Origin: a virus
Taxonomy: Duplodnaviria; Caudoviricetes
Virus record (IMG/VR): IMGVR_UViG_3300009081_000013
Coordinates: 1-63,953 of that record
Direction: 5' to 3' (one strand)
Length of the DNA stretch: 63,953 nt
A program made the translations under genes and the position numbers. The notes beneath the pieces were generated by a model. That model ran no database searches and was not told where the DNA came from. It saw only the letters and a program-made list of their open reading frames with translations. Below, in pieces: positions 9,704 to 38,581 of this stretch; the first letter of the stretch is position 1, and every line of letters begins with the position of its first letter.

Positions 9704-9724
9704 GGGAGAAAAGGAGGAAAGCAG

Positions 9725-10399: not shown

Positions 10400-10401
10400 C
10401 C

Positions 10402-13196: not shown

Positions 13197-13197
13197 T

Positions 13198-13587: not shown

Positions 13588-13600
13588 AAGGAGAAAAGCC

Positions 13601-14592: not shown

Positions 14593-14609
14593 AAACCCCG
14601 CCCCGACCA

Positions 14610-14639
14610 CCCACGATCAGGGGCGCCCCTGATCGTGGG
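14610..14639. repeat. perfect 30-bp palindrome at the convergence of the + and - arms
   Basis: CCCACGATCAGGGGC|GCCCCTGATCGTGGG. Confidence 0.9.
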
Positions 14640-15826: not shown

Positions 15827-16285
15827 TTATTGCTGGCTCTGTACGCCGGCGATGAACGCTTCCGCGGCGTGGTAGAGCAGGGCTTTATTCACTTTGCTGG
15901 TGTCCACCACGTCTCCATTCACAGTGACGCCAAGACGCCCGTAGAGCCTTTGAATAGCAAACAGCATAAGCGCGCTGTCGGTGTCACCTTTTTTCAAAGC
16001 ACGTACCCAAGCGTCGGTGAGCATGGCTGAAATATTCAGTTCATTATCCATCTGGTCTTTCATGTCCTGGGCTGCGGTCGTCAAGTCTTCAGCCGCATCC
16101 GGGTCTTTAGACGCCCAGATAGCCCCGATGGCAAAAGCGTCCTGGTACACCGCATCTTCCACTTGTGTGGGAGTCATCTCCGGGCCATAGAGTGCGTCCG
16201 TCACTCCGGCGCAGCCGATGACTCCTGCGCAGCCGATAAGCAGGGCCGCGGATAGGATCATTATCGCTTGTGTTTTTTTTCCCAT
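15827..16285 (-). CDS. putative lipoprotein (possible spanin component)
   Basis: AAGGAG RBS; LLIG-C lipobox with duplicated IGCAGV; downstream of lysis genes. Confidence 0.6.
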   Translation of the reverse strand: MGKKTQAIMILSAALLIGCAGVIGCAGVTDALYGPEMTPTQVEDAVYQDAFAIGAIWASKDPDAAEDLTTAAQDMKDQMDNELNISAMLTDAWVRALKKGDTDSALMLFAIQRLYGRLGVTVNGDVVDTSKVNKALLYHAAEAFIAGVQSQQ

Positions 16286-16360
16286 TTGGCTCTTTTCTCC
16301 TTTTGTAATTGGATGGTCCTGTGAACAGGGCACTTAGCGCAAAACACCGTCCCAATCTTT

Positions 16361-18600: not shown

Positions 18601-18996
18601 TTATTTTCGCAGGTTGTAAAACCGCACACGGCCGATCTGCTTTACGAACTTTGTTTCATCCGCCCACTTGGGCGGCGGGATGGACACGTCGTAGTAGTGC
18701 GTCGCCGCCAAGCCGCCTGGCCGTCCGGCCACCGCGTCCTCTGCGATTTGCATACACTCGAGCCACTGCTTGTCATCTTCCTTGGGCCAGAAGGTAAGCT
18801 GCGCGTCCTTGGGGTCGGTGAGGCTGGAGAACTGCCACTTTTGAAACAGCACGCCCATCACCCCTCGCCCCCACCAGCCAGGCGCTGACGCCCGTGTCAT
18901 GACCACTGAAGCGATGGCGCGCCGGCATTCGATCGATTCACCCCGGGCTTCACGCCAAAGCGCCAAGGCCAAAAACACTACATCGTCTTTTTTCAT
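18601..18996 (-). CDS. endolysin, SleB/Hydrolase_2-type cell wall hydrolase
   Basis: LWREARGE, QFSS, ATHYY, PPKWA, QIG...FY motifs. Confidence 0.9.
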   Translation of the reverse strand: MKKDDVVFLALALWREARGESIECRRAIASVVMTRASAPGWWGRGVMGVLFQKWQFSSLTDPKDAQLTFWPKEDDKQWLECMQIAEDAVAGRPGGLAATHYYDVSIPPPKWADETKFVKQIGRVRFYNLRK

Positions 18997-19271
18997 CAGC
19001 TCCCCGCCTTTCGAAGATACTCCGCCACGGCGATCACAATGTAGTCCTTGGCAGCCAGCCAGAGGGCGTACACCGCCGCCGCTCCGCCGACCATACCCCC
19101 ACCTGTTTGCATGCATGTGTTGCGCAGCCAGCGGCGGCGAGAATCAGCTTCATACTTGGCCTTGAATTGGATGTGGTTCCATATCAGCCGGCCGAGCGCT
19201 TTGTCTGGGTTTTCCTGGACATACTTTACCGCGTCGTCTTCTGATCTGATTTCAACTTCAAGTCCGCTCAT
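18996..19271 (-). CDS. holin-like membrane protein
   Basis: One C-terminal TM; translationally coupled to the endolysin. Confidence 0.5.
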   Translation of the reverse strand: MSGLEVEIRSEDDAVKYVQENPDKALGRLIWNHIQFKAKYEADSRRRWLRNTCMQTGGGMVGGAAAVYALWLAAKDYIVIAVAEYLRKAGS

Positions 19272-19283: not shown

Positions 19284-20648
19284 CTATTGGTAGCTTCCAG
19301 TCCCATGAATTATAGTATTCACACCCATACGGCGCGCTGATTCTGTCTCATAAAAACTGTTCGCGTATTCTTCGATGTTCAGGTATCCATCGCTGTCTGT
19401 ATCGCTCAAGGCGTCGTTCGCGGACGGATTCATACCGTGAGCCGATTCCCATGCGTCTGGTATTCCGTCCGAGTCAGTGTCGGTTGGATAGGAGCCTGAA
19501 AGCGTGGGATACCCACCAGCTTCGGTCACGGTATCGTATAGCGTTCCCGTACCGTCCACAACCTGTTGAACAATGCGCGTATCAATCACATCTCTGTCCC
19601 ACGGACGCGCGCCGACAGAAGCAAGGACGCTTGAATAGATCGTTGAACCTTCCGCGAAACTCGTACCGGCCCCGGTAAATGCTGGTGTTCCGACCACGTT
19701 TTCTTCGTCAGTGTAAAAGTCTAAAGCTCCGTACCCGGAAGAGTAATTCAGCGTATCGTAAACAGCGGTTGTACCCGTATTTTCTGCTGGCAGGATCATG
19801 ACATGCGGCCAAACAGTATCCCAATTAAGGCCACGCTTTAGGTAGTTTCCTATGATATTCACGCGAAAGGTTTGCGTCGGATGGTCAGGATCGCCAATCC
19901 GTATTCCGTGCGTTTCGCGGTTGTAGAAGATGTTCGATATGATCTCTATCTCGTCTCCGCGAAGGAGAGGATTCCTGCTTTTAGTGTTGGCCAGAAGGTT
20001 TCGGTAGAATGAAATTTTAGACGACTGATAATGGAAATATACGCCCATCGCGTGGATGCCGTCAGGATGGATAGAATCCGCGAGCGCTTCTCCAATAAGG
20101 CAGCTTGAGATAGTGACGTTTGCAACATCTGGATGCCATGTTGAAATAGTTTCATCGCTGGCCCAAGTTAACGAGCAGTGGTCTATGATGTGGTTTGACG
20201 TGCCTGTTCCAGCGGATTCTTCTATTTGAACGCAATCTCTATTATCGACCGCCGATCCTGTGTCGGTGCGATCTCCTGGGCGGATAATAAGTCCTCTGGT
20301 AATCGTGTTTTTGCATTTGTACCGGATGCCTGCATTTGCAAGACATAGCCCGCCCGGTGAAGTCGATCCAAAAATGGTCATATTATCTTCATCGGCTATG
20401 ATATTATCGGTAAGCTGGATCGTGCCGGATGCTTTTACCACAATTATCTTAGGTCCTACCACAGCCGCCGCTGCACGAAGGCTACCTGTTCCGCTATCAT
20501 TGGTATTTGTGACGAAGACAAGTTGGGTCCCGTCAACTCTGCCTCCAGTAGCAGAAGCGCCGAAGCCTATCGCGCCCGGGAAAGCATTTAAGGCATACGC
20601 CTCAGATGATGAAAGAACAAATATCAATATGGCTAAAATAATCTTCAA
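19284..20648 (-). CDS. pectate lyase (PL1-like beta-helix) with signal peptide
   Basis: AFPGA.GFG..ATGGR, VTNTNDSGTGSLR, IIDHCSLTWASDE, RNP, C-terminal DTDSDGIPDAWE; N-terminal MKIILAILIFVLSSSEAYA. Confidence 0.9.
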   Translation of the reverse strand: MKIILAILIFVLSSSEAYALNAFPGAIGFGASATGGRVDGTQLVFVTNTNDSGTGSLRAAAAVVGPKIIVVKASGTIQLTDNIIADEDNMTIFGSTSPGGLCLANAGIRYKCKNTITRGLIIRPGDRTDTGSAVDNRDCVQIEESAGTGTSNHIIDHCSLTWASDETISTWHPDVANVTISSCLIGEALADSIHPDGIHAMGVYFHYQSSKISFYRNLLANTKSRNPLLRGDEIEIISNIFYNRETHGIRIGDPDHPTQTFRVNIIGNYLKRGLNWDTVWPHVMILPAENTGTTAVYDTLNYSSGYGALDFYTDEENVVGTPAFTGAGTSFAEGSTIYSSVLASVGARPWDRDVIDTRIVQQVVDGTGTLYDTVTEAGGYPTLSGSYPTDTDSDGIPDAWESAHGMNPSANDALSDTDSDGYLNIEEYANSFYETESARRMGVNTIIHGTGSYQ

Positions 20649-21832
20649 TGATAGCCGCCTGTGCCATAAATACGCGTACCGTTGCCGCCAAAAGAGCGTG
20701 CTGGAATTGGCGTCGGTGTAGGTGTTGGAGTCGGTGTAGGTGTTGGAGTCGGTGTTGCTTCCCCGCCGAATGTAATAGCCGCTGATGCCGGTGATATTCC
20801 ACCCGTTGAATCCACCACAAACAGGTATCCCGTATCGCCGGAGCTAAATAGCCCCTGATTTATCTGAGCCGTAATACTGTTAGCTCCCCACGACGTTGGC
20901 GTCAGCATAGTCAGTTTAGTGCAATTTGCGTATGTGGCGTTGTTTCCTATCTCCACATGGGCGCGAGCATTTGCTCCTGTGGCCACGTAGATGTCGTCCA
21001 TAATGGCTCCAGCACATGACGATGCGGTCAGCCATCCAGTAAACCTTATTTGCGTCCAATATGGCGAGTTAGCGTCAGAAAATATGCGCTGGTTTGTGAT
21101 AGTAGTAGTATTTATGCCGTCTGTCTGGTTTAAATCCTGCCATGTATAGATGCCATTCGCAGATGCCGGATTACTACTATCTGCCTTTAGGTAGACCGAA
21201 AACCGCATCCACTGGCCCCATCTCCAATTTAAATCTTGGTAGGTGTTGAACCCCCCACCGTTGCCGTCCACTTTCCAGCCGGGGGTATAAGTCGGAATAC
21301 ACAAATCATCATCGCCTACCGAACTATTGTTCGTCAACCACGTCATCTTCCAAGATGACGCCTCCGGGAAATTTCCTGGTGAAGATGTACCAGGAAAACA
21401 TTTTCCACCAGGTATTTGAACCCAATATGAGATATAAATCTCAGTCGCATTTGGAAATGTTACCGTATTGCCGAGGATGTATTGTGGGTATGACGTGGTG
21501 TCATCTCTTTCAACAAGGCCAGCGTAATTTCCTGTGACATGCCCTAAATTAGAATACCGGACATATCCTCCAACATCCACCACGCCGTACCATGAGCCGT
21601 AACGCGGGCCGGAGTTGGTTGAGTCCTGCCCATTGGTTTTGCCCGACTCGTCAAACGTCTCAAAGATTTGCACAGTCGGGCCATCGCCAAAAGCGCACGA
21701 TCCATCGGAGCAGCCTATAGTGACCGTACTTTCATCGGTGATCGTTCCGCTGACCACCGGCTGGTCAGGCGCGGCCCATAAAAATGACGGAAGCAAGAGT
21801 AACAGCAGCAGGGCATATTTTACTATTCGCAT
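20645..21832 (-). CDS. signal-peptide protein, probable jelly-roll/polysaccharide-lyase-like domain, PT linker
   Basis: MRIVKYALLLLLLLPSFLWA; Trp-rich beta pattern; (PT)n near the C-terminus. Confidence 0.7.
   Translation of the reverse strand: MRIVKYALLLLLLLPSFLWAAPDQPVVSGTITDESTVTIGCSDGSCAFGDGPTVQIFETFDESGKTNGQDSTNSGPRYGSWYGVVDVGGYVRYSNLGHVTGNYAGLVERDDTTSYPQYILGNTVTFPNATEIYISYWVQIPGGKCFPGTSSPGNFPEASSWKMTWLTNNSSVGDDDLCIPTYTPGWKVDGNGGGFNTYQDLNWRWGQWMRFSVYLKADSSNPASANGIYTWQDLNQTDGINTTTITNQRIFSDANSPYWTQIRFTGWLTASSCAGAIMDDIYVATGANARAHVEIGNNATYANCTKLTMLTPTSWGANSITAQINQGLFSSGDTGYLFVVDSTGGISPASAAITFGGEATPTPTPTPTPTPTPTPIPARSFGGNGTRIYGTGGYH
20710..20757. repeat. Pro-Thr linker repeat
   Basis: GTCGGTGTAGGTGTTGGA repeated; encodes TPTPTP on the - strand. 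Confidence 0.85.
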
Positions 21833-22599
21833 ACGTCACCTATAGCCGATGTCTTCACTAAAATTTGGTCATACCTGAAGTCGGAGCCACTGCCGTGCTC
21901 TGAACTCGGATAGGCTGCTACCCGGTCGGTTGTCCATGCGCCATTCGTCACCGTGATGGCATTACTTCCCGGCATCGTTACGGTTTCTGAAATCCGTAAC
22001 CATGCCTGCGCGTTGGCTCCGGTGCCTTTGGCCATGTAGTACCAGATGTGATACCATGTGTTCAGAGACAATGCTGACGTAGAACTGCTGCTCGTTCCCA
22101 TCCATGACAATTTCAGGGTCCGGTCGGTGTCCATCAATATGGCTACGAGCTGCGTAACGTCAGCGTCAGACGTTGATAACACGTCACTTCCATTGCTGCT
22201 TGGGCCAGTTGCTACATACATTATAAAATGGCCGTAGATGCTGCCCTGTGCAGAAAACGTCGTATAAGTATATGAAGGCGTATCCGACCCAGGTACGATC
22301 CTCAGAGACTGAGACCCCCTTCCCACGTTTGTGGTGTAGTTCTCATCCACTATGCCGCCAGTACTACCTACTGATTCTGTCCAGGATTCTGAGTTGTCAT
22401 AACCGGTGCCCTCGAAGTTCTGGCAGACAAGAAAGCCGGAACAGCTCGAATCGGCGCATGGCGTCGGAGTAGGTGTTGCGCCAGAAACGGCAATCACCAT
22501 TCCATCAGCTTCTACACCTTGTAAGCTGACAAAGGCGAGCCCCAACAATACTGCCGCTATGCAGATAGCGCATGCCGTATCTATTAGTTTTTTTAGCAT
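21823..22599 (-). CDS. signal-peptide protein, LamG/ConA-like domain
   Basis: Start overlaps upstream stop (TAATG); hydrophobic leader ending VEA; LNTWYHI motif. Confidence 0.7.
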   Translation of the reverse strand: MLKKLIDTACAICIAAVLLGLAFVSLQGVEADGMVIAVSGATPTPTPCADSSCSGFLVCQNFEGTGYDNSESWTESVGSTGGIVDENYTTNVGRGSQSLRIVPGSDTPSYTYTTFSAQGSIYGHFIMYVATGPSSNGSDVLSTSDADVTQLVAILMDTDRTLKLSWMGTSSSSTSALSLNTWYHIWYYMAKGTGANAQAWLRISETVTMPGSNAITVTNGAWTTDRVAAYPSSEHGSGSDFRYDQILVKTSAIGDVCE

Positions 22600-25500
22600 T
22601 AGTTCACCTGGTCCACGGTGTATTCGAAACACACCATCGCGTCAGTGTTTGTCCCACTGACAGATGTAGTATGCCACTGAATTACATCATTTGCGTCAAT
22701 GCTGGCATTGCTTAAGGTACCATCGTCCGTCGCTTGTGTTGAGGTTGCTGTGATGTCAGCAGTACTGTCAATGGTAGCACAGTTGGCACCGGCACTGTCG
22801 CATTCATCGAGATGACCAATGATGTTTGTCGCGCCTCGCTGGTTTACCCTCACGGCCCTGATTGTGATGGCATATGGCAGGCTTTCTACCATGTAATCAC
22901 TGGAAGAAGTGACAGCCGCCATGGTCGTGCATTTTGTCTGGTACGCTGGTAAGGTAAAGGCGGCTGCGCCGTAAGCGCGGATGCCCTGCCCTGCTCCAGC
23001 AGAGCTGTCAACTGCAATCTCTCCAGCGGCATCCGTGGTAGGATTCGCGCCGTTTGGCGCTTCAAAAGAAGTCGCGCCGCCAGCGTCAATTGCGCCAGCC
23101 AAAACTCCAATGGTTACAGTCCCGCCGCTAAGGTTGGAAGCCGCACCGATTGATCCTATCCCACCAGTAAATGCGACAGCGGGTGTAAAAGCAATCGTTG
23201 CGCTGGTGCCGCTGGCAAACGTCCAAAGGTTGGTCCCAGCAGTAGCCGTCAAGTCTTCGCTGTTTGCGAACCAGGAAAAAGCGTTGGAGATGTAACCTGC
23301 TTCGCCGTCAGCATTGGCAGCCGAGTTGCCCACGAAAGCCGGTGCCGTCTGGTTGCCGGTGTAGGTATTTGCCCCGAGTACCGCAAGGGTCCCGGTAGCA
23401 GCCGGAAGAGTTATTGTTGCTGCCCCAGCCTGCGAAGCGTTTGGAACGATGGTTGCCGAGTAGTCCGTTGCCCCAAGCTCATTGTAAAGGACCAGGGAAC
23501 CATCCTGACCGGCTTCGCCCAAGGTCAAAGCGTCGGTGGTTTTGTTGAACACAAACCCAGCGTCGGCTCCAATAGCGGAGCCGCCATCATTAAACTGTAC
23601 TTGGGTATCAGAGCCAGCAGCGGCAGCAGTAGGTGTAGCAAAAGAAAGAACGCCGTTTCCATCCGTCTGCACGAACTGGCCGGAATTACCATCTGTTGTG
23701 GGCATGGTGAGCGTGTAGCTCGCTGCCAGTGCTGGTACAGTAAAGGTCACTGTACTGGACCCGTCGTCGCTGTCTTCTGCGATAATAAGTTGACCAGCAC
23801 CTGTCGCCCCACGGTTGACCGTAAGGGCGGCAGAAAGGGTCTTGGCTCCGCTGATGGTCTGAGCATCCTGCACATTGACGACCGCTTTTTCTGAGCCATT
23901 GACAGAGTACTTCAGCTGGTCGGACGAGTCGGTTTCAAACCATAGGGCGTATTCTGAAGCGCCAGGAGATCGCCCGCCTGCGTTGTTGGCGAGGCTGATG
24001 TAAGACTCGCCGGCACCCACGACCTGAAAAGATGTGGCGTAGACAGTTCCAGACGATTCAATATCGCCCTCCACGAAGAGTTCGTTGGTTGCTGTGGCAT
24101 AGGTCGGCGCAACGGTCGTGTCGTCGTCAATCCATACTGCGTGAGAGTTTGCGCCACGAAGAACGGATTGGAGGGCGAGTGTGTCGGTGTCGGCGTTGCC
24201 AATGGTGAGCGAGCCGGTAAAAGTCTGGTCGCTTCCAAGGTTGGCCAGGGTTTGTGCGGCATCGACAAGCGTAATTGCCCGAGCTGTTGAAAGTCCGGTC
24301 ACTGTGATGTAACCGGTACCATCTGAATCGTAGAAGCGATCCACATGGCTGGAAGCATTAACATCATCAGCAGAAACGCGTTGATGCGTCGTGCCATCGG
24401 TGATGTTATCTATGCTGCGGTTTGTGACCTGCGTGATATTTGTCAGGGTGATGTTGTCGGCGACATAGGTGTCCGCGACGGCCGTTCCCTGCCAAGTGCC
24501 AGCCGAGATCGTTCCAGCGTTGGCAATACCACCTGAAAACGTGGTGGCCGGGGTGATCGTCACACCAGAAGCCCCGGAAGCTCCAATGGCTACGACTTCG
24601 GCAGAGGTGACACCAATAACCGAAATATCCGTGCCGGCAGCGTCCGCTTCTGAATAGATGTACCCTGCGTTGGGGAGGCGAATTGATCCTGCGTCAGCCG
24701 GGTCAGCACCGAGGGCTATGTGCGAACTTGCCGCAACCGAAGCTGCGCCGCTCACAGCATTGGAATCGTCAACACTTATGCCAGTTATCTCAGTAAGGTT
24801 GCCGGTTCCGCTGGTTTTGGTTAAGCGGTTGTCAGTGCCGTAACCAGCAGGGCCAAGAACGATTGTGCCGGTTTCGGCAGGAATGGTTACAGTTACATCA
24901 GCGCCGGGGTTCGCGCCGGACAGAGCAATTTCAAAGTCGTTTACCGTGGCACCTTCAAAGTAAAGCGTGTTGGCTGTATTACCATCCGATGCGCCATTGG
25001 TAAAAGCAGCGCCACTCGAAGCATCGCCTACGGCTGTGATGTCGCCAGAACCTGCGGGATCACCCCACTGAGGGTTGGCACCAGCGCCTTGGGTCTGGAG
25101 GAACTGACCGTTGACTCCAGGGCCAAGAGTCACCCATGCCGAGCCATTACCATAGAGGACGTTACCTTGGGTGGGAGTGGTAGCTGCGATGTCGCCAAGT
25201 TCATCGTCTGCGGCCTGGTAGGTCGTCGCGGGCAGGGTAGAAAGAACACCAGCGTCCGAAGATACCACCAGGGCATTCGCAGCGCCAGGGTAAGCTGTGG
25301 GGAGCGTCCATGTCAGGTTGGCCACCGAGTTGCCGGGGGAGAGTTGGGTGTAATTGCTGTTGCCGTCGTAGAGCCGAACATAGGTGCCGCCGTCGCTTGA
25401 TCCGTCCAGACAAGCGCCATCGGTGCAATCTCCTACGGAAAGAACGTCACCAGAAGACGAAGCAGCCAGAGCAGCGATAGCCTGGGCCACACGAAGAGGA

Positions 25501-26147
25501 GACATGGAGCGAAGACCAGCCTCTGTGCCAGCTTCCATCTCGTCTTGACTTGCAGCAGCCAGAGCGGGCTCGAAGGTGGCGGGATCGGTCCAGCCTGCCG
25601 TACCATTTGTATCCACGTTGAACAGGGCGTTGTTCACGGTAGGGTAGGCGGTCTGGAGTGCGATGCCCCAGTTCTCCGTAAAGTTTGAAGCGTAGAGGTC
25701 AAAATGGAACACGTTTTCTGCCGTGTTGTCGTACCAGCGGACAGTGCCTTTGGTCGTTCCGGCGACACCGACATGTAACCCGTCTGAGCCTGTGATGGTC
25801 AGACCGTAGAGCGACAGCGCAGAGTCCGCGATGCTCCCGTCTCCATCAGGATCAATGGTCGCCATCATGTAGTCAATGAAGGCGTCCTGTGAGACGGCGT
25901 GTGTTTTGTCGTCAACATAGTTCGCGGCGGTCGCGGCCTCGTCTTGGACCTCAACTGAGCCCGCGCCGGCCACCGCTACAGCGATGTCATACACCGCATC
26001 CGGGTACATAGAGACAAGCTTGGTGTCACCTGACGGTGAAGCAATCTGCGCCGCAGTGATCCTGGGCGGGGGCGGGGGATTTGCTGCTGACGCAGCCGTA
26101 GTCACCCCAAGAACAATCAACAACAGCAAGAGAAAAGTCCGTTTCAT
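22599..26147 (-). CDS. tail-fibre-like protein with N-terminal signal peptide
   Basis: Gly/Ala/Ser/Thr-rich; fibre-type motifs ASQDEMEAGTE...SPLRVAQAI, YTLTMPTTDGNSGQFVQTDGNG, GSDTQVQFND; leader MKRTFLLLLLIVLGVTTAASA. Confidence 0.75.
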   Translation of the reverse strand: MKRTFLLLLLIVLGVTTAASAANPPPPPRITAAQIASPSGDTKLVSMYPDAVYDIAVAVAGAGSVEVQDEAATAANYVDDKTHAVSQDAFIDYMMATIDPDGDGSIADSALSLYGLTITGSDGLHVGVAGTTKGTVRWYDNTAENVFHFDLYASNFTENWGIALQTAYPTVNNALFNVDTNGTAGWTDPATFEPALAAASQDEMEAGTEAGLRSMSPLRVAQAIAALAASSSGDVLSVGDCTDGACLDGSSDGGTYVRLYDGNSNYTQLSPGNSVANLTWTLPTAYPGAANALVVSSDAGVLSTLPATTYQAADDELGDIAATTPTQGNVLYGNGSAWVTLGPGVNGQFLQTQGAGANPQWGDPAGSGDITAVGDASSGAAFTNGASDGNTANTLYFEGATVNDFEIALSGANPGADVTVTIPAETGTIVLGPAGYGTDNRLTKTSGTGNLTEITGISVDDSNAVSGAASVAASSHIALGADPADAGSIRLPNAGYIYSEADAAGTDISVIGVTSAEVVAIGASGASGVTITPATTFSGGIANAGTISAGTWQGTAVADTYVADNITLTNITQVTNRSIDNITDGTTHQRVSADDVNASSHVDRFYDSDGTGYITVTGLSTARAITLVDAAQTLANLGSDQTFTGSLTIGNADTDTLALQSVLRGANSHAVWIDDDTTVAPTYATATNELFVEGDIESSGTVYATSFQVVGAGESYISLANNAGGRSPGASEYALWFETDSSDQLKYSVNGSEKAVVNVQDAQTISGAKTLSAALTVNRGATGAGQLIIAEDSDDGSSTVTFTVPALAASYTLTMPTTDGNSGQFVQTDGNGVLSFATPTAAAAGSDTQVQFNDGGSAIGADAGFVFNKTTDALTLGEAGQDGSLVLYNELGATDYSATIVPNASQAGAATITLPAATGTLAVLGANTYTGNQTAPAFVGNSAANADGEAGYISNAFSWFANSEDLTATAGTNLWTFASGTSATIAFTPAVAFTGGIGSIGAASNLSGGTVTIGVLAGAIDAGGATSFEAPNGANPTTDAAGEIAVDSSAGAGQGIRAYGAAAFTLPAYQTKCTTMAAVTSSSDYMVESLPYAITIRAVRVNQRGATNIIGHLDECDSAGANCATIDSTADITATSTQATDDGTLSNASIDANDVIQWHTTSVSGTNTDAMVCFEYTVDQVN

Positions 26148-26149
26148 TC

Positions 26150-26566
26150 TTAGCTCCTCTTGGCAAAGCGCAGTTTCACAACCAAGTTCTTCGAGTTGCC
26201 TACGTTGGCTGCATTGGTGTTCGCAGTGGCTGCTATCCTCACCGTCAGCGTGTTGTCCACAGCAGGATAGTATCCAAGGTCTTCATGGCCGCTTTGTCTT
26301 TCCTCTGCACCGGCCGCACTGCGGTCACTGCCCAAAAACATGCGCCCGGCATTGGCACTGGTGATGTAGATGCGATACGCTGTGGTCGGAGGAGCGGCTC
26401 CGGGGGTGGTGATGATTTCTCGCAGCTCAAGTCCGGAGAGTCCAGCCAGCGCGGTGTCGGGGATTGTGCCGTTGGCACTGTCCGACACGCAGGTCAGCGT
26501 CACAATCCGCTCGATCTTTACTTTGCCCGGGTTGGTGGTGCGGGTTTGAACAACTGTGCCTGCCAT
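26150..26566 (-). CDS. putative virion structural protein
   Basis: AAGGAG RBS; beta-rich; lies between the ejection and fibre genes. Confidence 0.6.
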   Translation of the reverse strand: MAGTVVQTRTTNPGKVKIERIVTLTCVSDSANGTIPDTALAGLSGLELREIITTPGAAPPTTAYRIYITSANAGRMFLGSDRSAAGAEERQSGHEDLGYYPAVDNTLTVRIAATANTNAANVGNSKNLVVKLRFAKRS

Positions 26567-26568: not shown

Positions 26569-29500
26569 TTATCTCTCCTTATCTTGTCGTTTGTGCATCT
26601 CGGCGAGCGCATCGCCTGAGACAAATCCTTCTTGCATCATTTGATCGAGAAAATCTTGGAACTCATCGGGCGGCATTTCCATTGAGAACATGTCGAGGTA
26701 CATGCCACGCTTTTTATTGCTGCTCGCGTAGGACAGGGCGCGGATGCGCTCATCTTCTCTGCCACCGGTTTGAATTGCCCTGAACCACGTTTCGAACTTC
26801 TTGAACGTGTAGTCCTCTGGAAGCAGTCCTTTTTGCCGGAGGTTATCATAGAGCGGAAAACGGTCTTCCGTCTTTGTAGCGTAGCCGTTCTTGTTGATGA
26901 AACTGGTGATCTCTTTTTTGGCTTTGAGCTTGAGCGCCTTGTCTTCTTTGTCCATCGCTTCGCCCGCTTCGCGGTATCGCTCGGCGTGGCCGGCATCGGT
27001 GAGGGTGAAGACGGCGGTGGTGAGGTTAGGGCCAAAGGTGCGCAGCTTATCTTTGATTGGGTCAGGCTCTTTGTCGAGGTCGCCGGTTTGAAAGCGGTGG
27101 ATGACTGACAGGCCAAGTTGGTTGGAGGTGTGCTTGATCATCTCCTTCGCCGCGTCCCAGCCGCCCACTTCATACACATCTTTGGGAAGGACGTTGCCCC
27201 CGGTATGATCATTGACTGGGTTGTTCCCCATCAGGTAGTACTGAATCAAATCCCACCCGGCGGCAAGATACGGGCCAGTGCTGTAGGGGATTTTACCCCA
27301 TACGTCTTTAGCCACGCCCGCGGCGCCGATGCCAGGGAGATCATCAGTGACGCCTTCGACCAGCTTATAAAACACCGAGCCCCAGAACTGTCCTTCGTAG
27401 TCTTCGGGGATCAGGAGCGCCATGGAGTTACCCAAAGAGGAACTTCCTTTATAAGTCCAGGGCAAGGGGATGACTGAGTAAGCTGTTTTCTGGTATCGAG
27501 TCAGGCCATCCATCGCTTTTTTTACGTAGGGCATGAGCTTTTGGCCATATTCATGCTCGGCCGCGGCGTAAAGCGCCAGCTTCGGAAGCACATTATACAT
27601 CACCGTCTTCCAAATGTATGCAGACTTGTCCTCCTGGAAGGACTCCCACGCGGAGCGCAGACCCTCTTTGTTCACGTTGGAAAAGAGGAAGATGTTGTTG
27701 GTCAGGGCATGGATGTTGCGGCTGCCCTGGCGCTTGAAATCGGGTGTGCCAACGCGCGTGCGAACAACATGCCCGATCTCGGAGTCGGCGCGTGTGCCCA
27801 TCTCTTTGAGGAACTTGTAACCAGCAATCTTACCGCCGATTTCAGAAACGCGGCCCCATTTATCCAAGTTGCCATATTTGATCTTGCGGATGACGCGGTT
27901 TTCCGACTGTTCCATTTTGTGGATGCCACGCTTCAGCTTCTGCCAGATCTTGGCCGGCCCCGTAGCCTGTTCGTTTACGCCAGGATCAAACACCACACCC
28001 CATTCTTCTTTAAGGCGCATGATCTCGTTGTCGCTGTTTTGCTCTTTGGTGCCAAAGACTCGCTCGGCGGTGAGCATTTTTCCCGCCATCATGTCTTTGA
28101 TGTCCTGGCTGCGGTCGCTGTGCCACACGTCGCGCCATGCTTCACCGTAGGCTTTCTTGTACGCCCGGGCCAGCTTGGGCAGGTTTTTGATGCGCGCTTC
28201 GGGCAAGTTTTTGATAGTGGCGCGCACGTCACGCATGACGTTTCGAATCATCCAGATCGGGTTTTTGCTGACAAGCAAATCGCGCAGCGGGCGATGAAGC
28301 AGGCCGATGACTTCGGCAGCTTTGGTTGCTTCGACCGGGTTCCATTTAAACGAATCAGATATTTCTTTGTTGACGATGTAGTCAAAAGGCTTGCCATCGC
28401 GCATCACCGTGAGCAGGCCCTTGGTTTCATCTTTAGGGTCCTTGGCTTCACGGCGCTTGGTGATTGGGTTGTAAGTGGTTTCTTTGGCCGGCTCAATCAC
28501 GCCCGCGTCCATCAGCGCATCCACCATGCTGGTCTTGGCTTTGTTGATGTGGGCGGCGCGCAGCAGGCTCATGTCCTGCATGATGGTGGCGGTGAGCGGA
28601 TTCATGGCTTCGTCCAGCCCGCCGATCTGGTGGAAAATTCTGCCGGCTACGCCGGCGCCATGCTCCACCGTGATGTGCTTGACATAACTTACTTTGGCAT
28701 ATTCGCCGCGGGAATTGAGGATGTCCATCACCGCAGGGGTTGTCATGCCAGATTTGGCGATGCGGGGGAGCACCAGTTCTTCCCTGATCTTACGGTAGGC
28801 TTTGGACAGATCCTCAAGCTTGTTGTACTTGGCGTCGCCGATCTGACGTTTGAGCGCGTCGAGCACCCCCTGCGCCGTTTTGGCGTCCAGGCCGCCCGGG
28901 CTGAAAATGTCTTTACGGTTTTCGATGATGTGGCGGTTGAGCAGATAAGAGCCAAACTGTTTCACGTCCACACCCAGCTTGAGCAGCGGCTCGACGACTT
29001 CTTTGAGCGAAGCGTTGATGTAGTTGCTCACTTCGGATGCGATGTACTGAACTTCCTCCAGATCCGTCCTGGCCTTGCGCGCACGTTTGACCACATCTGG
29101 ATCGCTGGACTTTTCCATCTTGGCGACGTGCTTTAACATCTGCCGATTTTTGTCGATCAGCGCCGTGAACAAGGTGTCAGCGATTTCTTTGGGCGGGCGG
29201 AGCCCGGCTTTCTGCGCTTCGCGCAAAGCGGTGTCACCGCGCTCGAAACCTTCAACCTGATTGGCCAGGCGCCGATCACCGACCGCATCTGGCCCGCCGG
29301 CGTAAAGGTTGAGCACATCGTTGATTGCTTCGGAAAACTCTGGCCGCTCGGTGGCGTAGTTGTCCATGGCCCGGGCAAACGTCGGGGCGGTTTGGCGGAG
29401 CAGCTCGGGATCGTTCATCATCACCGACACCGCATCGGCGTAGAGTTCTTTGTCGCCGTAGCGGTAGGCAGTGTAATCCTCGTTCTGCTTGTCGTCGAAA

Positions 29501-31467
29501 GGTTTCCACTCTTTGGTCAGCGCTTTGAGTTCTTCCTTGATCTTCACCCGCTCGGCCGCCGTACTGTTTGGCATGGCGTTTGCCACACCGCCGGTGATCT
29601 TGGAGATGAAGTTCGGCAGTTTGCCTTTGATCTTGGCCATGCCGGGAAACCATTGGTCCCAGTGGCCAAGTTCGTGCATCAGTGTTTTGGTAGCGACGGT
29701 TGGATCTTTGCGATAAGCAAAAAAATCCGTCTCGCCGGTTTTGCGATTGTATTCTTTTGTGAACACCAGGCTCGCCGGATCGATCTTTACACTTTGCTTT
29801 GTCCGGTCCTGAAAATCCACAAACTTCTGATCGATGTCTGCCGCTTCTTCGGCGCGGGCTGTGGCTTTGTCCTGCGCCTTTGATTTTTTGGGTCGCACCG
29901 CTGCTGAGTTGATGCGATCGCCGATGGCCAGATCGGGGCGCAACACGATGTCGGAGGACTCGGCGTCGTATTCAAAGCGGCCGCGAGCGCGTGCATCTTT
30001 TACCACCTTTGGTACTTTGCCCTCATTAAGCTGCTTTACCATCTCGACAGCTTCAGGAAGCTGAATGCCATAAGGTGATTGCGGCCGGGGGGCGTAGGTG
30101 GAGGTCGCAGTGCCTTTGATCTGCGCCTTTGCACCAGTACGTGACTCATCGGCCGCCGACTCCATGTCATTTTCTACGGAGCGCTCTGTTCGTTTTTCCT
30201 GAACGGGCGACGTTTCTTGAACAGGAACATCCCGCCCGCCAAGAAACTCCGGCGTGTCAGGGCCGGCCGGCGGGGTCTGCTCAGGCATTGCCGACTCTTC
30301 ACCACCGAGAAACTCCGGCTTGTCGCTGGGGATCTTCGCCTCTTCAGCGATTTTATCCATCATACTTTCAAGATCGCCAACAACGTCGGCGGTGGCGTCC
30401 ACCCGGGCGTCTTCCTTGGCGGCCAGTTTGTTGTAGCCGGTGACGGCGCCTTTAACGCCCGCCGCCGCGCCGCCGAGCATGAGCCCCGCTACGCCGGCGA
30501 CCTTCGCCGCTTCTTTGGCGCTGGCTTTTGTCTCAGGCAAGCGCTTCTTGTATTCAGCCGTCCAGTCCTCGACTGAGCCGCCGGGGTTGTCGGCGTAGAC
30601 ATCGGCGGCTGCTTCCCAATATGATTGCGACACCTCTTCGCCAACTTCTGGCAGCACCAACTGAGGCACAGCCATGGCCCACTTGAGCACCTTGCCGCTC
30701 ACGCTCTTGGCAAACGGGCCGACCAGATCTTTCATCGCCCCAACCTGGAGCATGTTGCTGCCCTGCTCGATGGCGGTGGCGGGCAGCGCATTAAGCAGCG
30801 CCGCGTCCCGGGCCACCTGCGGGTCTTTGCCCTGCTTTTCATACTTGTCATACGACTGGCCATACATCGTCTGAAAGATCGCACCTGTGGCGGCCGGCTG
30901 CATACCGGGGATAAAGTTCATGGCCATGGGGATGGCTGTTGGCCCCACCGCCTTTACTGCTTTTTCAACCAGGCCCCCGACGCCCTCTGGATCGCCCGGG
31001 AGAAACTCCGGCATGTCCTTGGCGAACGTGTCGGCAGCTTTCTGATCAGAGCGCAGCTTATCCTGGATGAATTTATACATCGCCGGCCGCTGCTGGTCTT
31101 CGGGCAGCTCGGCGGCGATCTCTCCCCATTCTGCTTTATCCGATTCGGACAGCCGGGCAAAATAGCGCGCCATGGTTTCCGGCTGGCCGGGGGCGCCTGT
31201 GGGTGCTGCGGCGTTGCGCTGAGCAGAATCAGCCATGCCGCCTATCTGGGCGCCAAAGGCTTGGGCAGCAGAGCCCGCACCCTGCGCCACGGAGCGGCCA
31301 GCCTGGGATGCCAAGCGGTCGAGGGAAAACTCAGGCGTGCCTTGACGGATCGAGAACATGTGCTCGTCCGCGATTTCATCCATCGTCGCATCGAACGCAT
31401 CCACGGGGGCTTTACGGCCAGAACTCTCCCGCTCTATTTCGTCAAACAAGTCGTCGAGCTGGGTCAT
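26569..31467 (-). CDS. large internal virion/ejection protein (polyvalent-like, zincin HExxH motif)
   Basis: 1632 aa; LMHELGH...ELYAD; C-terminal DFKRQG...LFSN region resembles LPD38-type domains; synteny. Confidence 0.75.
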   Translation of the reverse strand: MTQLDDLFDEIERESSGRKAPVDAFDATMDEIADEHMFSIRQGTPEFSLDRLASQAGRSVAQGAGSAAQAFGAQIGGMADSAQRNAAAPTGAPGQPETMARYFARLSESDKAEWGEIAAELPEDQQRPAMYKFIQDKLRSDQKAADTFAKDMPEFLPGDPEGVGGLVEKAVKAVGPTAIPMAMNFIPGMQPAATGAIFQTMYGQSYDKYEKQGKDPQVARDAALLNALPATAIEQGSNMLQVGAMKDLVGPFAKSVSGKVLKWAMAVPQLVLPEVGEEVSQSYWEAAADVYADNPGGSVEDWTAEYKKRLPETKASAKEAAKVAGVAGLMLGGAAAGVKGAVTGYNKLAAKEDARVDATADVVGDLESMMDKIAEEAKIPSDKPEFLGGEESAMPEQTPPAGPDTPEFLGGRDVPVQETSPVQEKRTERSVENDMESAADESRTGAKAQIKGTATSTYAPRPQSPYGIQLPEAVEMVKQLNEGKVPKVVKDARARGRFEYDAESSDIVLRPDLAIGDRINSAAVRPKKSKAQDKATARAEEAADIDQKFVDFQDRTKQSVKIDPASLVFTKEYNRKTGETDFFAYRKDPTVATKTLMHELGHWDQWFPGMAKIKGKLPNFISKITGGVANAMPNSTAAERVKIKEELKALTKEWKPFDDKQNEDYTAYRYGDKELYADAVSVMMNDPELLRQTAPTFARAMDNYATERPEFSEAINDVLNLYAGGPDAVGDRRLANQVEGFERGDTALREAQKAGLRPPKEIADTLFTALIDKNRQMLKHVAKMEKSSDPDVVKRARKARTDLEEVQYIASEVSNYINASLKEVVEPLLKLGVDVKQFGSYLLNRHIIENRKDIFSPGGLDAKTAQGVLDALKRQIGDAKYNKLEDLSKAYRKIREELVLPRIAKSGMTTPAVMDILNSRGEYAKVSYVKHITVEHGAGVAGRIFHQIGGLDEAMNPLTATIMQDMSLLRAAHINKAKTSMVDALMDAGVIEPAKETTYNPITKRREAKDPKDETKGLLTVMRDGKPFDYIVNKEISDSFKWNPVEATKAAEVIGLLHRPLRDLLVSKNPIWMIRNVMRDVRATIKNLPEARIKNLPKLARAYKKAYGEAWRDVWHSDRSQDIKDMMAGKMLTAERVFGTKEQNSDNEIMRLKEEWGVVFDPGVNEQATGPAKIWQKLKRGIHKMEQSENRVIRKIKYGNLDKWGRVSEIGGKIAGYKFLKEMGTRADSEIGHVVRTRVGTPDFKRQGSRNIHALTNNIFLFSNVNKEGLRSAWESFQEDKSAYIWKTVMYNVLPKLALYAAAEHEYGQKLMPYVKKAMDGLTRYQKTAYSVIPLPWTYKGSSSLGNSMALLIPEDYEGQFWGSVFYKLVEGVTDDLPGIGAAGVAKDVWGKIPYSTGPYLAAGWDLIQYYLMGNNPVNDHTGGNVLPKDVYEVGGWDAAKEMIKHTSNQLGLSVIHRFQTGDLDKEPDPIKDKLRTFGPNLTTAVFTLTDAGHAERYREAGEAMDKEDKALKLKAKKEITSFINKNGYATKTEDRFPLYDNLRQKGLLPEDYTFKKFETWFRAIQTGGREDERIRALSYASSNKKRGMYLDMFSMEMPPDEFQDFLDQMMQEGFVSGDALAEMHKRQDKER

Positions 31468-36878: not shown

Positions 36879-37253
36879 ATGAAAACTATCGTTGCTTTGT
36901 GTCTTTTGCTCTTGGTTGGCTGTGCGTCCGCCCCGTTTGAAGGCTGGACGAAAGCCGACACCACCCGCCAAGTTGCTTATTCGGCCCTGCACGTCGCAGA
37001 TTGGGCGCAGACCGTCGAAATAACCCACAGCAACGGCCGGTACTACGAGGCTGGCCTGGCGTCCTATGCCATGGGGCACCACCCTGATGAACCCGAGGTC
37101 CATCTTTATATGGGCTCTACTCTTCTGCTTCAAACCGCCATCAGCGCCATGCTCGAACCGAAATACAGAAGGGCTTGGCAATACGTTTGGATCGGGTCTG
37201 AAGGCGGAACGGTTTTGCACAATTACTCCATAGGGCTTAGGTTTGGTTTTTAA
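36879..37253 (+). CDS. lipoprotein moron on the opposite strand
   Basis: AAGGAG RBS; MKTIVALCLLLLVG-C lipobox; C-terminal GLRFGF; upstream TTGACA at 36828. Confidence 0.8.
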   Translation: MKTIVALCLLLLVGCASAPFEGWTKADTTRQVAYSALHVADWAQTVEITHSNGRYYEAGLASYAMGHHPDEPEVHLYMGSTLLLQTAISAMLEPKYRRAWQYVWIGSEGGTVLHNYSIGLRFGF

Positions 37254-37945
37254 TCTATATAAGTTACAAGAATATAGCCCCTATTCATCACCGCATCATT
37301 ATAATTCGTTGAATCAAAATCTCCGCCTGTTACCCTGTTTAAAATAACGTTGGTAGTAGTTACCGATGATATGTATAAATCGTGATCTCCAGCATCGGTA
37401 TCTCCTGTGTATGGTATAGGATCGCCGGTTGACAAAGCATCATTGAAAAGTATACCACTCACACTGACTATTTTCGTTAAAGTTACACCATGAGCGACTG
37501 AAACCGCTGAAGTGGAATCCATATTCCAAACGCCGATATTGATTACTTTTTGCCTTGGTTGCGCAATTCCACCGCGCTGCACTACCACAGATAATCCCAT
37601 ATCGACAAACCCATCTGCCACTGTAAAACCGGTCGTAAATGTCTTTGTGCCACCGATACTTTGATTATCGACAGTATTTACCAGCGTTTTACCATCACAC
37701 TGATTCAACTCAGCAGCGGAAGCAGTAACGTCTGAAGCACCTGTAGCCAAAGTATGCGTGTGGGAGTTTTTAGCGGTAGAACCATCGCACGTCGTATTGA
37801 TCTCGGCAGCGGTTGCAGTGATCGCCGCGCGCGCGGCCAAATGCGTTCCAATGACTGCATCGATCGCCGCATTGTTGGTCCGAACAGCGTCGTCCAAGTA
37901 GCGCGCCTGTATCCCGGGAGCAGGCACATCTTTATCCCAACTCAT
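37250..37945 (-). CDS. short fibre/needle-like virion protein
   Basis: Repeated TATAAEIN/TASAAELN.CDG, QSIGGTKTF fibre motifs. Confidence 0.65.
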   Translation of the reverse strand: MSWDKDVPAPGIQARYLDDAVRTNNAAIDAVIGTHLAARAAITATAAEINTTCDGSTAKNSHTHTLATGASDVTASAAELNQCDGKTLVNTVDNQSIGGTKTFTTGFTVADGFVDMGLSVVVQRGGIAQPRQKVINIGVWNMDSTSAVSVAHGVTLTKIVSVSGILFNDALSTGDPIPYTGDTDAGDHDLYISSVTTTNVILNRVTGGDFDSTNYNDAVMNRGYILVTYID

Positions 37946-37954: not shown

Positions 37955-38581
37955 TTAAAACGACGGTTTGTTCCGTGTGCCGATAGGTATCTGCGCCACG
38001 GTGTTGTTGTGGATCAGCCCGACGTAGACTTTGTAGAGCGGCGCCAGCGACTGCATGCCATCTGTGTCGCCTTCATCACTTTTCAGCTCGATGGCGGCGC
38101 CATAGACAATAGCCCTGCCCCACAACTCGTTGTCGGGCAGATCGGCGTCATTCACCAATTCATCCGGCGTGCTCGACACCTTACGCATCTTGAGCGTGTA
38201 AACGCCATCGGGGATCTTGCGCACATAGAGCGTTCGATCAAAAAGAAGCACCCCCGTGGGCTGGCCCTCATCTGTGTCGTCCATGGGGTATTCGTCAAAG
38301 AACACTTCTTTGTCGGTGTAAAAATCGATCTGCTCATCGTCTAAATAGAGCGGACCCGACACGGCGATGATCGTCGCCGGCAACGCATAAGTTTCCGTGC
38401 TGTCCACCGTGTTGATGGAATACCAGCCTTTAAACTCAGGAGGGCTTATGATCTCCGGCAAGCGGACGCGATAAAAATCGTTCAACGCCGCTTTAACGTC
38501 CACTGCACTCATTTGAGCAATCGTCCGCTTGCCGGTGATCTTCCGGAAATCATTTTGCATACGAAGAAAAGTGTAAGCCAT
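37955..38581 (-). CDS. head-tail adaptor
   Basis: TETYALP, LYVRKIPDGVYTL, AIVYGA motifs; position. Confidence 0.7.
   Translation of the reverse strand: MAYTFLRMQNDFRKITGKRTIAQMSAVDVKAALNDFYRVRLPEIISPPEFKGWYSINTVDSTETYALPATIIAVSGPLYLDDEQIDFYTDKEVFFDEYPMDDTDEGQPTGVLLFDRTLYVRKIPDGVYTLKMRKVSSTPDELVNDADLPDNELWGRAIVYGAAIELKSDEGDTDGMQSLAPLYKVYVGLIHNNTVAQIPIGTRNKPSF

What the first reader, a model, noticed from the sequence alone, without database searches (positions are those of the whole stretch)
19284..26147. Tail-fibre-position module in which all four proteins carry Sec-type signal peptides
Seen: four translationally coupled late genes (1182-aa fibre-like, LamG-like, jelly-roll/PT-linker, PL1 pectate lyase) each begin with a basic-hydrophobic-AxA-like leader (MKRTFLLLLLIVLGVTTAASA; MLKKLIDTACAICIAAVLLGLAFVSLQGVEA; MRIVKYALLLLLLLPSFLWA; MKIILAILIFVLSSSEAYA). 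Three contain closely spaced Cys pairs (CTDGAC, CDSAGANC, CADSSC, CSDGSC). Known: tailed-phage fibres and depolymerases normally fold in the cytoplasm and use their N-terminus to dock on the virion. Inference: this phage exports its receptor-binding and glycan-degrading parts to the periplasm for oxidative folding and assembles them on virions at lysis, or releases or displays them as an extracellular adhesin/depolymerase complex.
Basis: partly seen in the sequence, partly recalled or inferred. Interest (0 to 1): 0.88.

Follow-up and report, generated by a model that had tools for sequence, protein, structure and literature searches.

The report
Phage fibre-lyase cassette with export signals
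In a complete uncultured short-tailed phage, the four genes that sit where tail-fibre genes normally lie all start with bacterial secretion signals, so this host-recognition and sugar-cutting gear probably leaves the cytoplasm, where the rest of the virus particle is built.

Summary
Four tightly overlapping late genes (19284-26147, minus strand) each start with a Sec-type leader. Only 1 of 60 other ORFs of at least 100 aa in the window does.

The leaders are kept in relatives:
- 59 of 73 fibre homologues by my own rule.
- 27 of 30 cassette genes in five related phages, against 0 of 23 upstream genes.

Orthologues of the 1182-aa fibre swap a signal-peptidase-I leader for a lipobox. That argues for real export.

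The four proteins are a fibre-like protein, two ConA/LamG-type jelly rolls and a PL1 pectate lyase built like secreted bacterial PL1 enzymes.

Whether they join the virion is open. A short fibre-like protein without a leader (37250-37945) sits beside the tail adaptor gene. Its orthologue in one relative carries a lipoprotein leader. Omnitrophota genomes encode secreted homologues of the fibre.

My odds: exported about 0.8; joined to particles at lysis about 0.4; acting off the virion about 0.35.

The scan has reported the same theme on at least eight other genomes. Five literature searches found no description of it for tailed phages.

The parts
22599..26147 (-). 1182-aa fibre-like protein. 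Leader is residues 1-21 (26085-26147), followed by a proline run. Conserved core at about residues 640-920. The C-terminal domain 1006-1179 is found on a separate lipoprotein in a relative.
   Evidence: No Pfam or PHROG family.
21823..22599 (-). 258-aa LamG/ConA-like jelly-roll protein. Leader is residues 1-31 (22507-22599), followed by a Pro-Thr linker and a C-x4-C loop.
   Evidence: Atlas structural neighbours are LamG-like and PL14-like. An in-frame ATG at codon 34 with an AAGGTG nine bases upstream is a possible second start.
20645..21832 (-). 395-aa protein. Leader is residues 1-20 (21773-21832). It has an Ig-like N-terminal strand region, a ConA-like jelly roll, a C-terminal Ig-like domain, a Pro-Thr linker and a 19-residue C-terminal tag (20648-20704).
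   Evidence: (best fold matches are PL14 and PL36 alginate lyases and lectins, TM about 0.5 by target).
19284..20648 (-). 454-aa PL1 pectate-lyase-like enzyme. Leader is residues 1-19 (20592-20648). It has TSP3-type calcium repeats and the same kind of C-terminal tag (about 19287-19343).
26150..26566 (-). 138-aa leaderless jelly-roll protein. It is the last gene conserved between relatives before the variable cassette.
   Evidence: (pLDDT 91.7).
37250..37945 (-). 231-aa leaderless fibre-like protein between the adaptor gene and the 595-aa structural protein gene. Its N-terminus is conserved and its C-terminus is variable. The orthologue in one relative carries a lipoprotein leader.
37955..38581 (-). 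208-aa head-to-tail adaptor (SU10 adaptor family). It marks the phage as short-tailed.
   Evidence: PF24175, E 6.8e-7, 30.4 bits against a cut-off of 27.
18601..19271 (-). Lysis genes directly downstream of the cassette: a 91-aa protein with one hydrophobic stretch (holin-like, inferred) and a SleB-type cell-wall hydrolase.
   Evidence: (PF07486, E 8e-15).

Best explanation
The four genes form a late-expressed cassette, co-translated with the structural operon. Its products are taken out of the cytoplasm by the host Sec pathway. In relatives, some products go by the lipoprotein branch instead.

In the oxidising periplasm they fold with short disulfide-stapled loops and calcium-binding repeats. 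They make up the phage's glycan-targeting gear: one long fibre, two lectin- or lyase-like jelly rolls and one PL1 lyase.

Because the cassette sits in the receptor-binding slot of a T7-like gene order, and varies between relatives the way receptor-binding modules do, I think it most likely ends up on the particle. The particle is built in the cytoplasm and would meet these proteins only when the holin opens the inner membrane.

Shown: the leaders, their conservation, the swap between leader types, and the gene position. Inferred: export, disulfides, and above all attachment to virions.
For: Leaders at well-supported starts:
- All four genes have leaders at well-supported starts.
- Background is 1 of 60 other ORFs of at least 100 aa.

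Conservation in homologues:
- 59 of 73 fibre homologues pass my rule. Three more look like leaders by eye (P0038, P0040, P0049).
- 9 of 14 homologues of the 395-aa protein pass the rule, about 12 of 14 by eye.

Related phages found through the 138-aa protein:
- Cassette genes with a leader: window 4 of 4, L043 6 of 7, L044 5 of 6, L045 plus L002 6 of 7, L046 6 of 6.
- 0 of 23 upstream genes have one.

Leader type swaps between orthologues at 72-79% identity:
- SPase-I type in the window, P0003 and P0004.
- Lipobox in L002/P0002, P0021, L043 and L044.

A proline at alignment position 25, just after the leader, is present in at least 90% of 29 aligned homologues.

The PL1 leader ends exactly where secreted bacterial PL1 enzymes start their mature domain.

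Extracellular-type parts are present: Pro-Thr linkers and TSP3 repeats here; Calx-beta, CBM5/12 and Big_5 in a relative's cassette.

Cysteines:
- The count after residue 30 is even in 43 of 60 leader-bearing fibre homologues.
- C-x4-C loops of small residues occur in cassette proteins of all five phages.

For a virion role:
- The cassette lies between the internal proteins and the lysis genes.
- There is no promoter or terminator excess inside it.
- The fibre has a conserved N-terminus and shaft with a swapped C-terminus.
- The fibre core is shared with leaderless proteins that carry the Peptidase_S74 or Gly_rich_2 domains.
- The same fibre (78% identity) sits in a phage where the adaptor was not found with this query, as expected of an exchanged host-range gene.
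- A gene inside the core tail cluster gains a lipoprotein leader in one close relative.
Against: No trained signal-peptide predictor was run and there is no experiment. My rule is uncalibrated.

The topology is awkward. Heads and tails are cytoplasmic, and the lipobox versions would be held in a membrane by their N-terminus.

No virion-docking domain was found in any of the four proteins.

The phage has a leaderless fibre-like protein beside the adaptor. That protein could be the real adsorption organ.

Homologues of the fibre core are ordinary chromosomal secreted proteins in two Omnitrophota genomes. So the family also works as a cell-surface fibre.

The PL1 protein looks like a captured bacterial secreted enzyme that could act free.

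The PL1 protein has five cysteines. The leaderless 231-aa protein has cysteines where its lipoprotein orthologue has none.

No cultured relative exists: only 58-67-residue (5-6% of the query) matches in 5 of 50,697 phage records.
Confidence: 0.4

Rival explanations
1. The proteins are exported but never join the particle. They work in the periplasm or on or around the dying cell as a free or envelope-bound adhesin-plus-lyase set. They would strip or mask the host's surface polysaccharide so that progeny are not trapped or wasted on debris. The virion would adsorb with the leaderless 231-aa fibre and its nozzle.
For: All the evidence for export listed under the best explanation applies here too.
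- A leaderless fibre-like protein with a conserved N-terminus and variable C-terminus lies next to the adaptor.
- PL1 homologues are mostly chromosomal secreted bacterial enzymes.
- Secreted fibre homologues occur in Omnitrophota chromosomes.
- Lipobox versions would be membrane-tethered.
- No docking domain was found.
- Free depolymerase is known to accompany phage plaques (passages read in PMC6116005).
Against: A 1182-aa fibre with no enzyme domain is an expensive non-structural late product.

The cassette sits in the fibre slot and evolves like a host-range module.

In the close relative G404 the only fibre-like gene of the core tail cluster that I found also has a leader. On this reading that phage would have no leaderless fibre.

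Sec takes proteins only as far as the periplasm, and no outer-membrane secretion route is encoded in the window that I could see.
Confidence: 0.35
2. The hydrophobic N-termini are not cleaved export signals in the natural host. They could be uncleaved membrane anchors or assembly helices. Alternatively, leaderless isoforms from internal starts could be the functional forms.
For: - The 258-aa gene has an in-frame ATG at codon 34 with an AAGGTG nine bases upstream. A methionine sits at the matching place in the L002 counterpart.
- The L043 and L044 fibres carry an extra hydrophobic segment ahead of the lipobox.
- The host is unknown.
Against: Three of the four genes have no in-frame start codon before conserved mature sequence would be lost.

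Lipoboxes and A-x-A sites are specific processing motifs, and they replace one another in orthologues.

Leaders vary in sequence but keep their n-h-c layout, as real signal peptides do.
Confidence: 0.12
3. The cassette is cargo taken from the host for the host's benefit. It would be a lysogenic-conversion or auxiliary module supplying surface adhesins and lyases to the lysogen.
For: - A 210-aa integrase-family gene is present (phrog_216, E 2.7e-33).
- Bacterial homologues exist for the fibre core and the PL1 enzyme.
Against: The genes overlap each other. They follow the structural genes with 2-base gaps and precede the lysis genes with a 12-base gap.

Promoter- and terminator-like sites are no more frequent than in shuffles: 12 against 9.2 +/- 3.1, and 24 against 18.4 +/- 4.9.

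Equivalent cassettes occupy the same slot in all four relatives examined.
Confidence: 0.05

Closest known systems
T7 gp17-type tail fibres and SP6/K1-5-type adaptor-plus-tailspike sets of short-tailed phages
   Same: Position after the large internal protein and before the lysis genes. Long fibre-like protein with a conserved proximal part and an exchanged distal part. Glycan-cleaving partners encoded beside it. The comparison with T7, SP6 and K1-5 is from my own knowledge, not from a call.
   Different: Those fibres are leaderless and dock by an N-terminal domain. Here the N-terminus is an export signal, and no such domain was detected.
Exported phage lysis and exclusion proteins: the Sec-exported endolysin Lys44 of phage fOg44, SAR endolysins, outer-membrane spanins, and the Llp and Cor lipoproteins
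   Same: These are phage late or accessory proteins that use the host Sec or lipoprotein pathway (passages read in PMC6116005, and PMC3556154). Llp and Cor are recalled, not from a call.
   Different: Those are small lysis or exclusion factors. Here a 1182-aa fibre and three carbohydrate-active proteins fill the fibre slot.
Secreted bacterial PL1 pectate lyases
   Same: A leader directly before the conserved start of the mature domain. C-terminal TSP3-type repeats. 30-49% identity over at least 80% of the query for most of the listed homologues.
   Different: This one is phage-encoded, coupled to a fibre gene, and carries a short C-terminal tag. The tag is shared with the unrelated 395-aa protein and with one protein of a related phage.
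Pantoea stewartii WceF, a bacterial exported enzyme with a tailspike fold
   Same: It shows that a tailspike-type protein can be exported and work in the cell envelope (passages read in PMC7949094).
   Different: WceF is chromosomal, uses the Tat pathway, and keeps a P22-like head-binding domain. There is no sequence relation to the proteins here.
Signal-peptide-bearing genes of Porphyromonas gingivalis phages (Matrishin et al. 2023)
   Same: Phage genes with Sec signal peptides adapted to the host (passages read in PMC10367356).
   Different: That paper names capsid proteins, spanins and unknowns read as envelope modifiers. The text holds no occurrence of 'tail fiber'. Its supplementary gene list could not be seen.

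Membership tests
Sec (signal peptidase I) signal peptide | Positively charged n-region, uncharged hydrophobic h-region of about 7-15 residues, small residues at -3 and -1, no proline at +1 | tested here: met
   All four proteins pass my rule-based check, against 1 of 60 other ORFs. The rule is my own and uncalibrated.
Sec (signal peptidase I) signal peptide | Called by a trained predictor (SignalP, DeepTMHMM) | not testable with these tools
Sec (signal peptidase I) signal peptide | Leader kept in homologues as a layout rather than as sequence | tested here: met
   59 of 73, 9 of 14 and 69 of 119 homologues pass the rule. 27 of 30 cassette genes against 0 of 23 upstream genes.
Sec (signal peptidase I) signal peptide | Cleavage and export observed | not testable with these tools
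   Needs N-terminal mass spectrometry or reporter fusions.
Bacterial lipoprotein (signal peptidase II) signal, in orthologues | Lipobox ending in Cys after a hydrophobic run | tested here: met
   Found in the L002 fibre and its 433-aa neighbour, the L043 and L044 fibres, the L044 546-aa protein, and the L053 orthologue of the 231-aa protein. None of the four window proteins has one.
Polysaccharide lyase family 1 (pectate lyase) | Match to the family profile | tested here: inconclusive
   PF00544 scores 22.1 bits, below its cut-off of 24. But phrog_27797 'pectate lyase' gives E 1.5e-50, and there are 539 homologues, many named pectate lyase or PL1.
Polysaccharide lyase family 1 (pectate lyase) | Catalytic base and calcium-binding acidic residues in place | not tested
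   I did not map the active site.
T7 gp17-type tail fibre | N-terminal tail-docking domain | tested here: not met
   No Pfam or PHROG match on the 1182-aa protein. The N-terminus is a leader followed by a proline run.
T7 gp17-type tail fibre | Gene position after the internal core proteins | tested here: met
Phage moron (independent cargo gene) | Own promoter and terminator, separable from the late operon | tested here: not met
   The genes overlap. There is no excess of promoter- or terminator-like sites.
ConA/LamG-like lectin or PL14/PL36-like lyase fold (258-aa and 395-aa proteins) | Jelly-roll sandwich fold | tested here: met
   The 395-aa model (pLDDT 75.1) matches PL14 and PL36 alginate lyases, lectins and calreticulin at E 1e-6 to 1e-5, TM by target about 0.5. 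The Atlas gives leads for both proteins. Lyase activity is not shown.

The most novel reading that the evidence does not exclude
Two-compartment virion assembly. This phage lineage builds head and tail in the cytoplasm. It sends its long fibre and lyases through Sec or Lol to be disulfide-stapled in the periplasm. The parts meet only when the holin opens the membrane. The infectious particle is therefore finished in the lysing cell, and export signals are a normal part of receptor-binding genes in many uncultured phages.
Probability: 0.3. Interest if true: 0.9.

Novelty: new variant of a known kind. Interest (0 to 1): 0.64.

Why it matters
Tailed-phage assembly is taught as a purely cytoplasmic process. 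Fibre and depolymerase genes are annotated, cloned and engineered on that assumption.

If receptor-binding gear is routinely exported in uncultured phages, three things follow:
- Host-range prediction, recombinant production of depolymerases (which would need disulfides, calcium and removal of the leader) and synthetic phage rebooting would all need revising.
- Lysis timing would acquire a second role, as the step that brings the two sets of parts together.
- If instead the cassette works off the virion, it is a large, previously undescribed class of phage-secreted adhesin and lyase complexes.

This window offers clean material for either test: four leaders, an orthologue series that swaps leader type, and a core tail-cluster gene that exists with and without a lipoprotein leader.

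Tried and rejected
Tried without result:
- Single-protein scans of viral contigs with the 395-aa and 454-aa proteins found no relatives.
- The 40439-46496 structural block matched cultured phages only over 125 bases, in 9 Salinibacter phage records.
- tblastn of the fibre against 50,697 phage records gave only 58-67-residue matches (5-6% of the query) in 5 records. The 231-aa protein gave none, and no PDB sequence match. The 595-aa protein gave no PDB sequence match.
- The major head protein was not found in the 401 genomes searched of the phylum of G002, which holds the Omnitrophota locus L008. The host stays unknown, and this does not exclude that phylum.
- The 138-aa protein as a fibre adaptor: its model is a generic jelly roll. 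It is nearest to small uncharacterised phage proteins, capsid cement proteins and knob domains of collagen-like fibres. In distant relatives (L047-L052) it lies in the head module. I therefore dropped the adaptor idea as unsupported.
- Complex prediction: I tested the C-terminal tag region of the 395-aa protein against the fibre's C-terminal domain and the mature 258-aa protein. The verdict was 'no answer' (score 0.02, mark 0.34). This is no evidence either way.
- Pfam on seven leaderless fibre homologues gave only Gly_rich_2 (P0051) and Peptidase_S74 (P0064), and no docking domain.
- Literature: searches found no paper describing Sec- or lipoprotein-type leaders on tail fibres or tailspikes of tailed phages. 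In PMC10367356, PMC3517404, PMC3765740, PMC7949094, PMC6116005 and PMC3556154 I read only the passages that 'find' returned.

Considered and rejected:
- A Tat signal: no twin-arginine in the four leaders.
- A membrane-containing virion: the head, portal and terminase are of the ordinary tailed-phage kind.

Full report
What the window is. The 63,953-base window is a whole viral record with direct terminal repeats. The repeat lies inside a 24-base tandem array. It holds no tRNA gene.

On the minus strand it carries a late operon in this order:
- large terminase (44811-46496);
- portal (42836-44800);
- major head protein (40439-41377);
- a 208-aa SU10-type adaptor (37955-38581; PF24175, 30.4 bits against a cut-off of 27);
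- a 231-aa protein (37250-37945);
- a 595-aa virion structural protein (phrog_3287);
- several proteins without family, including one of 1632 aa that contains an HELGH motif;
- a 138-aa protein (26150-26566);
- the four genes of the finding;
- a 91-aa protein with one hydrophobic stretch, and a SleB-type cell-wall hydrolase (PF07486, E 8e-15).

This is the order of a T7-like short-tailed phage, so 'tail-fibre position' is a fair description. That comparison comes from my own knowledge of T7. The phage also has its own DNA polymerase, helicase, exonuclease and primase, and a 210-aa integrase-family gene. It has no close cultured relative.

The observation. The four ORFs and their leaders are as described.
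- The first gene starts at ATG 26147, with AGGAG six bases upstream.
- The second most likely starts at ATG 22599. This overlaps the fibre's stop by one base, and AGGTGA lies upstream. The protein is then 258 aa.
- The third starts at ATG 21832, ten bases before the second gene's stop.
- The fourth starts at TTG 20648, within TTGA.

The gaps to the genes on either side are 2 and 12 bases. Promoter- and terminator-like sites are no more frequent than in shuffled sequence.

A rule-based detector that I wrote passes all four proteins and 1 of 60 other ORFs of at least 100 aa. A few small proteins elsewhere in the window also have leaders or lipoboxes. This shows that the phage's host uses these pathways. 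The detector is uncalibrated and no trained predictor was at hand.

The four quoted cysteine pairs are present.

What the proteins are.
- The 454-aa protein is a PL1-type pectate lyase (phrog_27797, E 1.5e-50; Pfam below its cut-off). It has 539 homologues. The listed ones are mostly secreted bacterial enzymes on long chromosomal contigs. Their leaders end just before the same conserved start of the mature domain.
- The 395-aa protein has 14 homologues. Its model (pLDDT 75.1) shows a ConA-like jelly roll. The best solved matches are PL14 and PL36 alginate lyases, lectins and calreticulin.
- The 258-aa protein is a LamG-like jelly roll by the Atlas's own model.
- The 1182-aa protein has no family but 73 homologues. 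They share a conserved core at about residues 640-920. That core also occurs in leaderless proteins carrying Peptidase_S74 or Gly_rich_2 domains.

Are the leaders conserved? Yes.
- Of the 73 fibre homologues, 59 pass my rule and three more have obvious leaders by eye. Of the remaining 11, three start with a Val-coded first residue and may be truncated.
- Directly after the leader, a proline at alignment position 25 is present in at least 90% of 29 aligned sequences.
- Of the 14 homologues of the 395-aa protein, 9 pass the rule and about 12 have a leader by eye.

I then used the conserved 138-aa protein to fetch related phages. In the four close ones none of 23 upstream genes has a leader. Leaders in the genes between the 138-aa homologue and the lysis genes count as follows:
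- 6 of 7 in L043;
- 5 of 6 in L044;
- 6 of 7 in L045 plus L002;
- 6 of 6 in L046;
- 4 of 4 in the window.

The three exceptions are one leaderless 152-157-aa protein family. For L043 I had to re-read the frames by hand, because two genes had been merged or missed by my ORF picker.

The strongest single argument for real export is that orthologues of the same fibre, at 72-79% identity, carry different kinds of signal. The window, P0003 and P0004 have a signal-peptidase-I type. L002/P0002, P0021, L043 and L044 have a lipobox. Selection is keeping 'export', not a particular sequence.

Signs of an extracellular life.
- The cassettes carry Pro-Thr linkers and TSP3 calcium repeats. In a relative they carry Calx-beta, CBM5/12 and Big_5 domains.
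- The number of cysteines after residue 30 is even in 43 of 60 leader-bearing fibre homologues, and in 8 of 14 without a rule-passing leader.
- Short C-x4-C loops made of small residues occur in cassette proteins of all five phages: three in the window, two in L043, one or two in L044, two in L045/L002 and three in L046. Outside the cassettes the same pattern turned up only in short frames that I take to be non-coding, or in an upstream extension of the hydrolase ORF.
- In the 395-aa protein this loop is a four-residue insertion absent from all 14 homologues.
- Against the disulfide idea, the PL1 protein has five cysteines.

Is the cassette part of the virion? This is where the evidence stops.

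For a virion role:
- the gene position;
- the absence of separate transcription signals;
- a conserved proximal part with a swapped distal part. Window residues 1006-1179 are 56% identical to the end of a separate 433-aa lipoprotein in L002;
- hypervariability of the cassette behind a conserved 138-aa gene;
- presence of the same fibre in a phage (G403) where the window's adaptor was not found with this query.

Against a virion role:
- no docking domain;
- the membrane tether implied by the lipobox versions;
- chromosomal homologues in two Omnitrophota genomes. In one of these, three tandem 1520-1819-aa paralogues, two of them with leader-like N-termini, sit among ordinary bacterial genes.

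An unexpected piece of evidence cuts both ways. The 231-aa protein encoded between the adaptor and the 595-aa protein has no leader. It has fibre-like repeats, a conserved N-terminus (70% identity over residues 2-88 with G404) and a variable remainder. It could be the particle's own adsorption fibre, which would free the cassette for an off-virion role.

In the close relative G404 (adaptor 68% identical) its orthologue begins with a 17-residue lipoprotein leader and nine more residues. These are placed exactly in front of the conserved N-terminus and behind a GGAGG ribosome site. There is no in-frame start further down. In G405 the orthologue is leaderless.

So either a gene of the core tail cluster can be exported and still do its job, or this protein is not a virion part either.

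Verdict. I put real export at about 0.8. Within that, I slightly prefer attachment to particles at lysis (0.4 overall) to an off-virion adhesin and lyase set (0.35). Non-export readings get about 0.12 and host-benefit cargo about 0.05.

The same theme has been reported by this scan on at least eight other genomes, and the word search matched 275 notes. I treated those as leads only. From one of them I took the pointer to Matrishin et al. 2023 and checked it. The text mentions signal peptides on capsid, spanin and unknown genes of Porphyromonas phages and never tail fibres.

Five literature searches found no description of exported tail fibres in tailed phages. The nearest items in print that I found:
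- Sec-exported and SAR endolysins;
- spanins;
- the Tat-exported, tailspike-like bacterial enzyme WceF.

Noticed in passing
window 20648-20704 and 19287-19343; L002 about 15650-15710: The unrelated 395-aa and 454-aa proteins end in the same kind of roughly 19-residue tag (Ala-Arg, glycines, then a Gly-Thr-Gly and a terminal His or Gln). One cassette protein of L002 ends the same way. With my strict pattern it occurs nowhere else in the loci or protein sets searched. By co-occurrence its partner could be the fibre's C-terminal domain. The one complex job gave no verdict.
   Followed up: partly
L053:1423-2241 (G404), orthologue of window 37250-37945: A gene of the core tail cluster has a lipoprotein leader in one relative and none in the window or in G405. 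After the lipobox cysteine, a short Leu-Glu-(Gln/Arg)-(Thr/Ser)-Gly motif recurs in three different lipoproteins of two phages. This looks like a mobile leader cassette.
   Followed up: partly
window fibre residues 22-28 and most homologues: A run of prolines follows the predicted cleavage site in most fibre homologues. One position is at least 90% proline in 29 sequences. It could be a linker, a docking element or a sorting cue. This is unexplained.
   Followed up: no
window 22498-22500 (codon 34 of the 258-aa gene): An in-frame ATG just after the predicted cleavage site has AAGGTG nine bases upstream. A methionine sits at the matching place in the L002 counterpart. A leaderless second isoform is possible.
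   Followed up: no
L033 (Omnitrophota single-cell genome), 34-15382: Three tandem paralogous ORFs of 1520-1819 aa are related to the fibre core. Two have leader-like N-termini, and they share a C-terminal end. Two further leader-bearing proteins follow. This is a bacterial surface-fibre family related to phage fibres.
   Followed up: partly
window 1-200 and 63750-63953: Both ends of the record lie in a 24-base tandem repeat, so the 78-base terminal repeat is part of a repetitive coding region.
   Followed up: no
window 26569-31467: The 1632-aa internal-protein candidate contains an HELGH zinc-peptidase-like motif and no cysteine. It has no Pfam or PHROG family.
   Followed up: no
window 34357-34797: A 146-aa protein among the putative internal virion proteins matches GNAT acetyltransferases (PF00583, 22.8 bits against a cut-off of 20.7).
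   Followed up: no
window 12077-12699, 15827-16333 and 36804-37253 (+): Further small proteins have leaders or lipoboxes: a 108-aa protein, a 99-aa lipoprotein, a lipobox at an internal start of the 168-aa ORF near the lysis genes, and a plus-strand lipoprotein ORF inside the tail operon.
   Followed up: no
L043:16893-17351, L044:15537-15998, L045:10393-10866: A leaderless 152-157-aa protein family recurs inside the otherwise leader-bearing cassettes of three relatives. It has no Pfam family. A tblastn of the window's cassette proteins did not address whether the window has one.
   Followed up: no
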